This document shows, piece by piece, positions 3,899 through 4,975 of a stretch of DNA of 7,777 bases. How positions within the stretch are numbered: position 1 is the first letter of the stretch; the number at the start of each line of letters is the position of its first letter. The DNA lies in the IMG/VR virus record IMGVR_UViG_2645727743_000027; one strand, given 5' to 3'. Position numbers and translations under genes: made by a program. Source of the stretch: a virus (lineage: Duplodnaviria > Heunggongvirae > Uroviricota > Caudoviricetes). The notes under the pieces were generated by a model, which made no database searches, was not told the DNA's origin, and worked only from the letters and a program-made list of their open reading frames with translations.

Positions 3899-4182
3899 TG
3901 GCTAACCTGCAACTTGCTGTTAAAAATGAATACTTCGATGCCATGATTCGCGGAGAGAAAACGGAAGAGTATCGCCTTGTTAATGACTACTGGAAAAAGC
4001 GCCTCGTTAACCGCGAGTATGGCAGTCTGATCATCACGAAGGGGTATCCGAAGCGCGACGATTCCAGCCGCAGAATTGATGTTCCGTATGGCGGATATGA
4101 AATCAAGACAATCACACATCCGCACTTCGGCGATAAACCGGTAAAGGTATACGCGATAAAGGTGAATATCGGCAATGAATAA
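3898..4182 (+). CDS. ASCH-like (PUA-fold) small protein, 94 aa from ATG 3898
   Basis: The N-terminal pattern LQLAVKNEYFDAMIRGEKTEEYR resembles the ASCH-domain N-terminal signature (for example E. coli YqfB). GGGGGA Shine-Dalgarno about 7 nt upstream; ATG overlaps the orf73 stop (TGATG). The track start at 3895 is a GTG one codon upstream. Confidence 0.6.
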   Translation: MANLQLAVKNEYFDAMIRGEKTEEYRLVNDYWKKRLVNREYGSLIITKGYPKRDDSSRRIDVPYGGYEIKTITHPHFGDKPVKVYAIKVNIGNE

Positions 4183-4231
4183 CAATCCTCGCATTGGCGG
4201 GGATTTCTTTTATCTGAAAAGGACAGAATAC

Positions 4232-4327
4232 ATGATTAACAATATTGCAAATCAGTCTTCGTTTCCGGCTGCAACAATTGACAGCCAGATGCTGTTGAAA
4301 ATGGTTAATGAGGCGCGGAGACTGTGA
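4232..4327 (+). CDS. Short ORF (31 aa from ATG 4232; frame open back to ATG 4175) ending at a TGA that is in frame with the downstream 186-aa ORF
   Basis: AAAGGA Shine-Dalgarno 8 nt upstream of ATG 4232. The frame continues without any stop from the TGA at 4325-4327 to ATG 4415 and on to 4975. Either a separate small gene or the N-terminal part of an interrupted gene. Confidence 0.3.
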   Translation: MINNIANQSSFPAATIDSQMLLKMVNEARRL

Positions 4328-4414
4328 GGCGAAAAAGAAGTACGCAACAACGACTTCATTGCACGCATCAAAGATGAGCTTGAGGGGGAGGGTTACGAAA
4401 TTTTCGTAACCCCC

Positions 4415-4975
4415 ATGGATAAGAAAAAAGGCGGAGCGGATCAGGTGGTTATAGTGATGACCTACAAGCAAGCCCTGCGCGTCGCCGCACGTGAGTCGAA
4501 AGCCGTCCGTCGTTCGCTGGTCGACAAACTTGAATCAATGCAACAGCAGTTGCAACAAAAAACGACCACGAAGAAATCACCGGATGGCCTTGAAGAATTC
4601 CGTAAGGCACGCGCATTGAAAATGACCGTCGACACAATGAAAGACCTCTTCGACTTCCTCCCTCACCTCGCACCGGAAGCTAAACAGGTCGTTGCCGCCA
4701 GCCTGATTAATCCCGTCGTCGGCTTTAGTGCAATCCCTCTTCCGGTCATTGATGAACATCACTACTCTGCGTCGGAGGTTGGCACCATGCTTGGCATTTC
4801 AGCCAACAAGGTAGGGCGCATTGCCAACACCTACATGCTCAAAACAGAAAAGTACGGGAAGTGGTTCATCGACAAATCGGCGCACAGTGACAAGCAGGTC
4901 GAGACATTTCGCTACAACGAGGCGGGAGTGCACAAGATCGAGGAACTCATCGAAGGAGAACGAAAGGCTGCATGA
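4415..4975 (+). CDS. Hypothetical protein, 186 aa (Ea22-sized; predicted coiled-coil middle and helix-turn-helix-like C-terminal segment)
   Basis: Long ORF with protein-like composition, in the position where lambda carries ea22 (182 aa); I cannot confirm homology from memory. No canonical Shine-Dalgarno directly upstream; a perfect palindrome sits at 4390-4412. Confidence 0.65.
   Translation: MDKKKGGADQVVIVMTYKQALRVAARESKAVRRSLVDKLESMQQQLQQKTTTKKSPDGLEEFRKARALKMTVDTMKDLFDFLPHLAPEAKQVVAASLINPVVGFSAIPLPVIDEHHYSASEVGTMLGISANKVGRIANTYMLKTEKYGKWFIDKSAHSDKQVETFRYNEAGVHKIEELIEGERKAA

What the first reader, a model, noticed from the sequence alone, without database searches (positions are those of the whole stretch)
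4175..4975. A 266-codon reading frame interrupted by a single in-frame TGA
The frame opening at ATG 4175 (or ATG 4232 with a good Shine-Dalgarno) runs to 4975, broken only by TGA at 4325-4327. The 29 codons between that TGA and ATG 4415 are stop-free in this frame only and look protein-like (GEKEVRNNDFIARIKDELEGEGYEIFVTP), and ATG 4415 has no canonical ribosome-binding site. This could be a recent nonsense mutation, low-level UGA readthrough giving a short and an extended product, a sequencing error, or two genuinely separate genes.
Basis: seen in the sequence. Interest (0 to 1): 0.55.

Follow-up and report, generated by a model that had tools for sequence, protein, structure and literature searches.

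The report
Nonsense-mutated prophage antirepressor-like gene
The interrupted frame is an ordinary prophage accessory gene, related to the phage P1/P7 antirepressor, that one widespread E. coli prophage lineage carries with a single C-to-T stop mutation; public annotation already flags it as a pseudogene.

Summary
In detail: the frame 4175/4232-4975 has one in-frame TGA at 4325-4327. The real gene is 4232-4975 (247 codons). It belongs to PHROG 1726 ("anti-repressor"), and residues 15-103 are 88% identical to phage P7 Ant1/Ant2. About 1,900 homologs across Enterobacterales are single ORFs of 241-252 aa. The stop sits on a nearly invariant Cys (TGC/TGT). The closest relatives read CGA (Arg) and differ from the window by one base in 744 (4325 C/T). 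TGA is nested inside CGA diversity, so CGA->TGA is the simplest history. It is not a sequencing error: 15 complete E. coli genomes, 3 IMG/VR contigs and 10 of 10 inspected contexts carry it, always in the same prophage beside mdtA. NCBI's PGAP already labels it "pseudogene, internal stop". I found no selenocysteine signal. ATG 4415 has no ribosome-binding site, directly abuts a strong hairpin and is not conserved in the family. Basal UGA readthrough (about 2% in K-12) must give a trace of full-length protein, but nothing suggests this is programmed. The finding is ordinary. In passing I found a 23-nt palindrome at 4390-4412 that is conserved, with strong covariation, across the whole Ant N-module family; its function is unknown.

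The parts
4232..4975 (+). Antirepressor-like gene (247 codons), interrupted; a pseudogene by annotation
   Evidence: The identical sequence is annotated by PGAP as a CDS pseudogene with 'internal stop'. The repaired protein matches PHROG 1726 'anti-repressor' end to end, E=1.7e-96. Intact 247-aa orthologs exist in Stx2a phages and E. coli genomes.
4325..4327 (+). In-frame TGA at codon 32; relatives read CGA (Arg) or TGC/TGT (Cys)
   Evidence: T4325 is the only difference from the CGA alleles L014, L028 and L031 over the gene. The column is Cys in at least 90% of 30 diverse homologs.
4219..4223 (+). Shine-Dalgarno-like AAGGA, 8 nt upstream of ATG 4232
   Evidence: Read from the sequence. The start at 4232 agrees with the RefSeq and phage gene models and with the family's N-termini.
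4232..4327 (+). Remnant 31-codon N-terminal ORF, ending just after helix 1 of the N-domain
   Evidence: The AF2 model places helix 1 at residues 18-31. This 31-aa peptide is not called as a protein in the collection.
4415..4975 (+). Downstream 186-aa ORF from Met-62; lacks alpha1, alpha2 and beta1 of the N-domain but keeps the C-module
   Evidence: Gene callers annotate it as 'hypothetical protein' on 571 contigs. Met-62 occurs only in the 'TPMDKKK' cassette variants. There is no SD at a usable distance, and the ATG abuts the hairpin.
4387..4414 (+). Conserved hairpin/palindrome inside the ORF (arms 4390-4400 and 4402-4412, 11 nt each, 100% complementary)
   Evidence: It is conserved with covariation across the family: 94% of cells paired, 7 of 10 pairs changed on both sides, 0 of 500 shuffles as good. 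It is also present in P7/P1 ant and in distant Pseudomonas, Acinetobacter and Vibrio phage homologs. Codon choice beats synonymous resampling.
4175..4231 (+). In-frame upstream extension; not part of the conserved gene (overlaps the ASCH gene end and the intergenic region)
   Evidence: The ASCH CDS ends at 4182. Other alleles have stops or unrelated sequence here. Some records nevertheless call a 266-aa product from this start.

Best explanation
The region is one gene (4232-4975) for a 247-aa antirepressor-like protein of lambdoid prophages. Its N-module is homologous to the phage P1/P7 antirepressor Ant, and its C-module is a different winged-helix-like domain. In the prophage lineage integrated beside mdtA, codon 32 mutated from CGA (Arg) to TGA by a single C-to-T transition at 4325. 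Translation from ATG 4232 therefore ends after 31 residues, just after the first helix of the N-domain, and the gene is functionally a null or a strong hypomorph. Only basal UGA misreading by Trp-tRNA would give a little full-length W32 protein. Shown: the single-ORF family, the one-base difference, the reproducibility of the allele and its nesting within CGA diversity. Inferred: the direction of the change, the loss of function, and that the loss is tolerated (or mildly favoured) because the gene is an accessory gene of a resident prophage.
For: (1) Homologs are one ORF. PHROG 1726 aligns to residues 2-246, and about 1,900 homologs are almost all 241-252 aa. (2) Relatives have a sense codon at the site: 19 TGC, 6 CGA and 4 TGA among the first loci, and Cys in at least 90% of diverse homologs. 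(3) CGA alleles L014, L028 and L031 differ from the window only at 4325. (4) TGA alleles are found only on the T4194/G4196 background, with the window's xis/int beside mdtA. CGA alleles occur on both backgrounds and with other integrases. (5) Among complete E. coli genomes with these flanks there are 19 CGA and 15 TGA, and 10 of 10 inspected contexts have TGA, so this is not an error. (6) PGAP independently calls it a pseudogene with an internal stop in three genomes. (7) The family is disrupted independently elsewhere: a G8-to-G9 frameshift in PA8-type Stx2a phages and truncations in others. This fits a dispensable accessory gene. (8) No recoding signal was found.
Against: The allele is common (571 contigs for the 186-aa ORF against 992 + 231 for the intact Arg allele) and has persisted through exchange of the left arm (TUM3755) and patchy recombination (Z1322HEC0006). 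There are no further lesions downstream. A dead gene might be expected to decay, although its intact neighbours ant, xis and int are equally invariant, so the lineage is simply young. Site parsimony alone (outgroup TGC) would make TGA an intermediate between TGC and CGA, and no CGC/CGT intermediate was seen. No expression data were available.
Confidence: 0.85

Rival explanations
1. The split gene still has a useful product. The 186-aa ORF from ATG 4415 (C-module plus a stub of the N-domain) is translated independently or by reinitiation, so the lineage expresses a shortened antirepressor-like protein, loosely like the two in-frame products Ant1/Ant2 of P1/P7.
For: The downstream ORF is intact in every TGA allele seen. 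The C-module occurs without this N-module in other genomes, so it can be an autonomous unit. An independent lesion, the G9 frameshift in PA8-type phages, also leaves the same Met-62 ORF, there with a stop/start overlap ATGGATAA that favours coupling. P7 Ant1/Ant2 sets a precedent for nested products.
Against: ATG 4415 is 87 nt past the stop. The nearest GGAGG-like run (4384-4389) is about 25 nt upstream, and the ATG directly abuts a hairpin of -17 kcal/mol. Met-62 is absent from most family members. The P7 ant2 start lies upstream of the whole N-module, not at this position. Intactness is uninformative because the neighbouring genes are equally invariant.
Confidence: 0.07
2. Functionally relevant UGA readthrough: the stop is leaky enough that a reduced dose of full-length protein (Trp at position 32) is made, and the allele persists as a down-tuned antirepressor rather than a null.
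For: UGA is read by Trp-tRNA at about 2% (37 C) to 4% (25 C) in E. coli K-12 reporters (PMC10570021). Position 32 tolerates Cys, Arg, Tyr, Ser and His in natural homologs, so W32 might work. The allele is common.
Against: The stop is confined to one lineage and is not conserved across homologs. There is no conserved downstream stimulatory structure: the small hairpin after the UGA is the same sequence in sense alleles and is absent from L003-type alleles. From my own knowledge, not tested here: a G after the stop is not the leakiest context, and non-K-12 RF2 terminates better.
Confidence: 0.06
3. UGA encodes selenocysteine, because the stop aligns with a nearly invariant Cys in homologs.
For: The column is Cys in at least 90% of the family. 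A modest hairpin (-11 kcal/mol, z=-3.1) starts about 10 nt after the UGA.
Against: The hairpin loop is CAACAA, with none of the G/U loop bases or the bulged U that E. coli SelB needs (compare the fdhF SECIS folded; the requirement itself is from established knowledge). The same downstream sequence is present in the CGA and TGC alleles, so it did not evolve with the UGA, and it is not conserved in L003-type alleles. There is no Rfam hit in the region. The immediate sister allele is Arg, not Cys.
Confidence: 0.01
4. The TGA allele is ancestral. Cys (TGC) mutated to TGA, and the widespread Arg (CGA) allele of Stx phages is a later pseudo-revertant of the nonsense allele.
For: TGC to CGA needs two steps. 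The only single-step intermediates are TGA and CGC, and TGA is observed while CGC/CGT is not (0 of 34 E. coli genomes with these flanks, 0 of 24 IMG/VR loci). The outgroups share T at 4325.
Against: TGA is restricted to one upstream haplotype and one integrase/site, while CGA spans two haplotypes and several phage types. The Arg allele is more abundant. Passing through a stop is selectively less likely than passing through a synonymous Arg codon.
Confidence: 0.12

Closest known systems
Intact orthologue in Stx2a and other lambdoid prophages (e.g. Escherichia phage Lyz12581Vzw QDF15703 'antirepressor protein'; WP_000609351.1 in E. coli E2)
   Same: The same 744-nt gene: 743 of 744 nt identical in E2, L014 and L028. 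It sits in the same position, upstream of an AntA/AntB-type ant gene and the int module.
   Different: Codon 32 is CGA (Arg) instead of TGA. These prophages often carry a different integrase and attachment site.
Phage P7/P1 antirepressor Ant1/Ant2 (immI operon c4-icd-ant)
   Same: Residues 15-103 are 88% (P7) and 70% (P1) identical to the N-terminal part of Ant2, including the conserved hairpin-coding segment. The P7 record annotates antagonism of C1 repression.
   Different: The window's gene has no Ant1-specific extension. Its C-terminal half is a different module rather than the P1/P7 C-terminal domain. It has no c4 RNA or icd context and lies in the pL-distal arm of a lambdoid prophage. 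Antirepressor activity of this protein is untested.
PA8-type Stx2a phage allele split by a G-run frameshift (KP682374: 58-aa ORF + 189-aa 'KilA protein')
   Same: An independent inactivating or splitting lesion in the same gene, also upstream of Met-62, which leaves the same downstream ORF.
   Different: The lesion is a +1 G in a G8 run about 20 codons downstream of the window's stop. Its new stop overlaps the ATG (ATGGATAA), which would allow translational coupling; the window's TGA is 87 nt away from the ATG.
Recoding paradigms in E. coli: Q-beta A1 (UGA readthrough) and fdhF (UGA = Sec)
   Same: An in-frame UGA with an open frame beyond it. For Sec, there is also a Cys in homologs at the aligned position.
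   Different: The stop is not conserved, there is no SECIS-like loop, and no dedicated downstream element is specific to the UGA allele.

Membership tests
PHROG 1726 / Ant(P1,P7)-N-module antirepressor-like proteins | Full-length profile match | tested here: met
   PHROG 1726, E=1.7e-96, residues 2-246 on profile positions 3-264 of 264. No Pfam or NCBIfam family passes its threshold.
PHROG 1726 / Ant(P1,P7)-N-module antirepressor-like proteins | N-module homologous to characterised Ant of P1/P7 | tested here: met
   tblastn gives 87.6% identity to P7 ant1/ant2 and 70% to P1 over residues 15-103.
PHROG 1726 / Ant(P1,P7)-N-module antirepressor-like proteins | Single uninterrupted ORF of about 241-252 aa | tested here: not met
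   The window has TGA at codon 32, while 30 of 30 aligned diverse homologs are uninterrupted. It is therefore a disrupted member.
PHROG 1726 / Ant(P1,P7)-N-module antirepressor-like proteins | Binds and inactivates a phage repressor | not testable with these tools
   The name rests on annotation and on homology to P1/P7 Ant. The fold search gave only weak winged-helix/MerR-like local matches.
Pseudogene by nonsense mutation | Orthologs carry a sense codon at the stop position | tested here: met
   CGA or TGC in all other alleles.
Pseudogene by nonsense mutation | Single-base difference from an intact allele | tested here: met
   Only 4325 T/C differs from L014, L028 and L031.
Pseudogene by nonsense mutation | Real in the DNA (not an assembly or read error) | tested here: met
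   15 complete genomes, 3 IMG/VR contigs and 10 of 10 contexts carry it.
Pseudogene by nonsense mutation | Loss of the protein product | not testable with these tools
   No expression or proteomic data were available. PGAP labels it a pseudogene.
Bacterial selenoprotein gene | Cys in homologs aligned with the UGA | tested here: met
   Cys in at least 90% of the family at this column.
Bacterial selenoprotein gene | SECIS stem-loop just 3' of the UGA, with a SelB-binding loop | tested here: not met
   The hairpin loop is CAACAA, the same sequence occurs in sense alleles, and the hairpin is not conserved. No Rfam hit.
Programmed stop-codon readthrough | Stop codon conserved among homologs, with conserved coding potential beyond it | tested here: not met
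   The stop is present in only one prophage lineage.
Nested in-frame products (P1/P7 Ant1/Ant2 type) | Conserved internal start codon with a ribosome-binding site | tested here: not met
   Met-62 occurs only in one cassette variant. There is no SD within range and the ATG abuts the hairpin. The P7 ant2 start maps upstream of the module.

The most novel reading that the evidence does not exclude
The locus may be more than a dead gene. The 23-nt palindrome at 4390-4412 could be a selected cis-acting nucleic-acid element of Ant-type genes. It is conserved by covariation from lambdoid prophages through P1/P7 to Pseudomonas, Acinetobacter and Vibrio phages, even where the encoded peptide is unrelated. 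In the TGA lineage, as in the independent PA8 frameshift lineage, ribosomes stop before or right after it, which would leave the element folded and perhaps allow expression of the Met-62 C-module product immediately downstream. On this reading the 'pseudogene' alleles are regulatory variants of an antirepressor locus rather than junk.
Probability: 0.12. Interest if true: 0.55.

Novelty: already known. Interest (0 to 1): 0.15.

Why it matters
For the finding itself, very little. It is a correctly spotted but routine nonsense allele of an accessory prophage gene, and RefSeq already flags it. It is useful as a marker of one widely disseminated mdtA-site prophage lineage. It is also one more example of antirepressor-like genes being knocked out independently in resident prophages; the G-run frameshift in O157 Stx2a phages such as PA8 is another. 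Such knock-outs could bear on prophage stability and on Stx-phage induction. The side observation may deserve separate study: a deeply conserved, covarying palindrome inside the Ant N-module coding sequence. It is either an undescribed cis element or a clean natural case of a self-maintaining quasi-palindrome.

Tried and rejected
- **Pfam and NCBIfam** on the repaired and partial proteins gave no family above threshold.
- **Rfam** at a permissive threshold gave nothing in 4175-4975.
- **SECIS test:** I folded 4325-4372 next to the fdhF SECIS. The loop and the conservation do not fit.
- **Foldseek against the PDB** with the AF2 model (pLDDT 76) gave no hit at E<=0.001, only local winged-helix/MerR/Xis-like similarities. 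The fold adds little beyond 'DNA-binding-like'.
- **Sequencing error** is rejected by recurrence in independent assemblies.
- **Two separate genes** is rejected by the family architecture.
- **Selection downstream of the stop:** the differences seen are synonymous, but most loci were retrieved by exact protein match (ascertainment bias), and the neighbouring genes are equally invariant, so this is uninformative.
- **Hairpin as an intrinsic terminator** is rejected, as there is no U-tract on either strand.
- **Hairpin as lambda-type boxB, as SD-to-ATG bridging, or as a frameshift stimulator** is not supported. The loops lack the GNRA-like pattern, there is no slippery site, and there is no conserved downstream start (partly inference).
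- **Strand assignment of the hairpin from wobble pairs** is inconclusive: G.U 3-4 against A.C 4.
- **Literature searches** found no description of this gene's stop or of the hairpin.

Full report
**1. The observation**

The window is the left (pL-distal) arm of a lambdoid E. coli prophage. It carries gam, bet (1479-2264), exo (2261-2941), a TraR-like gene, an ASCH gene (3895-4182), the frame in question, an AntA/AntB-type ant (5298-5921), xis (6006-6224) and int (6202-7275). Translating 4175-4978 gives one internal stop, TGA at 4325-4327. It is followed by 29 open codons and then ATG 4415, which opens a 186-aa ORF ending at 4975.

On the + strand only this frame is open across 4328-4414. One minus-strand frame is open there too, as part of a mechanical 119-aa ORF. 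ATG 4232 has an AAGGA 8 nt upstream and is the start used by the RefSeq and phage annotations. ATG 4175 lies inside the end of the ASCH gene.

**2. What the gene is**

With the stop repaired, the 247-aa protein matches PHROG 1726 ("anti-repressor") over its whole length (E=1.7e-96). It matches no Pfam or NCBIfam family. A search of the 5.8-billion-protein collection returns about 1,900 homologs in Escherichia, Salmonella, Serratia, Klebsiella, Enterobacter, Cronobacter, Pantoea, Morganella and others. Almost all are single proteins of 241-252 aa.

Residues 15-103 are 88% identical to part of phage P7 Ant1/Ant2 and 70% identical to P1 Ant. These are the classical antirepressors of the immI operon, and the match begins just inside Ant2. 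The N-module (about 1-105) and the C-module (about 112-247) also occur separately in other genomes, so the protein is a two-module mosaic.

An AlphaFold model (pLDDT 76) gives the following layout:
- a winged-helix-like N-domain (beta 15-17, alpha 18-31, alpha 39-49, beta 56-60, beta 71-77, alpha 78-86);
- long helices (residues 90-163);
- a helix-turn-helix plus beta-hairpin C-domain (residues 180-246).

PDB fold matches are weak and local. The stop at codon 32 therefore truncates the protein right after the first helix. A product starting at Met-62 would lack alpha1, alpha2 and beta1.

**3. What relatives have at the stop position**

In 30 diverse homologs the column is Cys in at least 90%. 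Among the 29 loci collected at that point (5 fetched records plus 24 IMG/VR contigs) the codon is TGC in 19, CGA in 6 and TGA in 4. More distant loci have TGC/TGT, or occasionally TAC/TAT/CAT/CAC.

The nearest relatives are Stx2a phages of O145/O103 strains, chicken isolates and others. They read CGA (Arg). Alleles L014, L028 and L031 (strain E2) differ from the window at a single base, 4325 C/T, across the gene.

**4. Reality and spread of the allele**

- Among 5,426 complete E. coli genomes, 34 carry this sequence type: 19 with CGA and 15 with TGA (14 exact 61-mers plus Z1322HEC0006).
- Three IMG/VR contigs carry TGA.
- The exact 186-aa downstream ORF has been called on 571 contigs and is indexed in 953 blocks. 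The intact Arg allele has been called on 992 contigs, and on 231 more from the upstream ATG. These counts may include the same assemblies held by several sources.
- All ten inspected contexts have TGA at the same codon, in the same prophage next to mdtA.
- PGAP annotates the locus as a pseudogene with an "internal stop" in three RefSeq genomes.

So a sequencing error is excluded, and the feature is already recognised in public annotation.

**5. Direction and age of the change**

TGA alleles are found only on the T4194/G4196 upstream haplotype, and always with the window's xis/int. CGA alleles occur on that haplotype and on the outgroup-like C/C haplotype, and with other integrases and sites such as wrbA. 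TGA is therefore nested within CGA diversity, and a CGA-to-TGA transition is the simplest history.

There is a caveat. Arg (CGA) is itself two steps from the family's Cys (TGC). The only single-step intermediates are TGA and CGC, and no CGC/CGT allele was found. The reverse order (TGC to TGA to CGA) is therefore not fully excluded; I give it about 0.12.

The allele has persisted through two kinds of recombination:
- replacement of the whole left arm by a P22-like module set in TUM3755;
- patchy recombination on both flanks in Z1322HEC0006.

The interrupted gene shows 0-1 polymorphisms among the TGA prophages, as do the intact neighbours ant, xis and int. The lineage is young, and no inference about selection after the mutation is possible.

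**6. Recoding alternatives**

*Selenocysteine.* The UGA-opposite-Cys signature is present. However, the small hairpin after the UGA has a CAACAA loop. It is the same sequence in the CGA and TGC alleles, and it is absent from the divergent L003-type alleles. Rfam finds nothing in the region.

*Readthrough.* UGA is misread by Trp-tRNA at about 2-4% in K-12 reporters (PMC10570021), so traces of W32 full-length protein are unavoidable. The stop is not conserved and has no dedicated context, so nothing suggests a programmed event.

*Internal start.* ATG 4415 lies 87 nt past the stop. It has no SD within range and directly abuts a hairpin of -17 kcal/mol. It is present only in the 'TPMDKKK' cassette variants. 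The P7 Ant2 start maps elsewhere.

**7. Other disruptions of the same gene**

PA8-type Stx2a phages carry a G8-to-G9 frameshift about 20 codons downstream of the window's stop. It is annotated there as two genes overlapping at ATGGATAA. Other alleles are truncated. Independent lesions fit a dispensable accessory gene. It is my inference that loss of an antirepressor could stabilise lysogeny.

**8. Side finding inside the coordinates**

Positions 4390-4412 form a perfect palindrome of 11+1+11 nt (GGGTTACGAAA-T-TTTCGTAACCC), inside codons G-Y-E-I-F-V-T-P. It is conserved across the family while its sequence changes freely:
- Outer codon pairs include GGT/ACC, ACC/GGT, TTT/AAA and CAC/GTG.
- Inner codon pairs include GAA/TTC, AAA/TTT and ACA/xGT.
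- The encoded amino-acid pairs change together with the codons.

On 25 distinct sequences, 94% of cells pair, against 29-52% in slid controls. Seven of 10 pairs change on both sides, and 0 of 500 shuffles reach the observed covariation. Codon choice gives 9.3 of 10 pairs, against 7.2 +/- 0.2 under synonymous resampling.

P7 ant has the hairpin, and P1 has a weaker copy. Homologs at 37-45% identity in Acinetobacter, Vibrio, T1-like E. coli and Pseudomonas phages have a hairpin at the same position. In the Pseudomonas phages the peptide is unrelated.

There is no U-tract on either strand, so it is not an intrinsic terminator. Wobble pairs show no strand bias (G.U 3-4 against A.C 4), and 94% of pairs are strict Watson-Crick. 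That pattern fits a DNA-level palindrome, or maintenance by replication template switching (PMC8794818, PMC5941160), at least as well as it fits a selected RNA helix. Its function is unknown. I found no description of it in the literature.

**9. Verdict**

The locus is a known kind of thing: a nonsense-mutated accessory prophage gene. It is already annotated as such, so interest in the finding itself is low.

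Noticed in passing
window 4387-4414 (arms 4390-4400 / 4402-4412); also L003, L034-L073, L076 (P7), L077 (P1), L079-L084: A perfect 23-nt palindrome/hairpin inside the ORF. It is conserved with extensive covariation across the whole Ant N-module family, including P7/P1 ant and distant Pseudomonas, Acinetobacter and Vibrio phage homologs. Amino-acid pairs and codon choice change together to keep the pairing. There is no U-tract and no strand bias in wobble pairs. Its function is unknown: it may be a cis element or a quasi-palindrome maintained by template switching.
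   Followed up: yes
L012, L013, L018, L026, L078 (phage PA8), equivalent to window 4383-4422: An independent disruption of the same gene: a G8 run expanded to G9 just 5' of the palindrome shifts the frame. The new stop (TAA at the position equivalent to window 4420-4422) overlaps the Met-62 ATG as ATGGATAA. PA8 annotates a 58-aa ORF and a 189-aa 'KilA protein'. L007 has the in-frame G8 run.
   Followed up: partly
window 4325-4327 and homologs: The Arg (CGA) allele common in Stx2a phages replaces a nearly invariant Cys (TGC/TGT). The two codons are two steps apart, and the only intermediate observed in any dataset is the TGA stop. No CGC/CGT allele was seen.
   Followed up: partly
window 4232-4975; loci L043-L075: The N-module (about residues 1-105) and the C-module (about residues 112-247) occur separately in other genomes. 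The invariant block QALRVAARESKAVRRSL lies near the junction, like a recombination linker. The 10-15 residues after the palindrome form a cassette-like hypervariable loop.
   Followed up: partly
window 5170-5258 (+): Rfam match to sRNA-Xcc1 (RF02221, 69.3 bits against a gathering score of 53, E=2e-11) in the intergenic region just upstream of the AntA/AntB-type ant gene (5298-5921).
   Followed up: no
window 812-870 (+): Rfam match to the lambda cIII thermoregulator element (RF01804, 88.5 bits), as expected for a lambda-like pL arm.
   Followed up: no
window 7345-7447 and 7673-7775; 7541-7683 (+): A 103-nt direct repeat (93% identical, 328 nt apart) with a full Sib antitoxin RNA match (RF00113, 137.6 bits) between and over the copies. 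Homology to the related prophages ends at about 7480, so the prophage sits next to the tandem Sib/Ibs repeats upstream of mdtA.
   Followed up: partly
L030 (TUM3755) and L033/L088 (Z1322HEC0006) versus the window: The TGA allele with its Ant-Xis-Int arm is joined in TUM3755 to a completely different P22-like early-left arm (Abc, Ead/Ea22, DUF551, DUF4222). In Z1322HEC0006 the same stop is flanked by clustered substitutions (4235-4312 and 4900-4960) that look like recombination patches.
   Followed up: partly
window 1479-2941 versus L085-L094: Among TGA-bearing prophages, bet and exo differ from the window at 4-23 sites each, while the arm from traR to int is almost invariant. This suggests a separate recombination history for the Red region.
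   Followed up: no
window 4112-4471 (-): A 119-aa minus-strand ORF lies antisense to the gene and spans the stop and the palindrome. It is probably a by-product of the sense frame's composition and was not examined.
   Followed up: no
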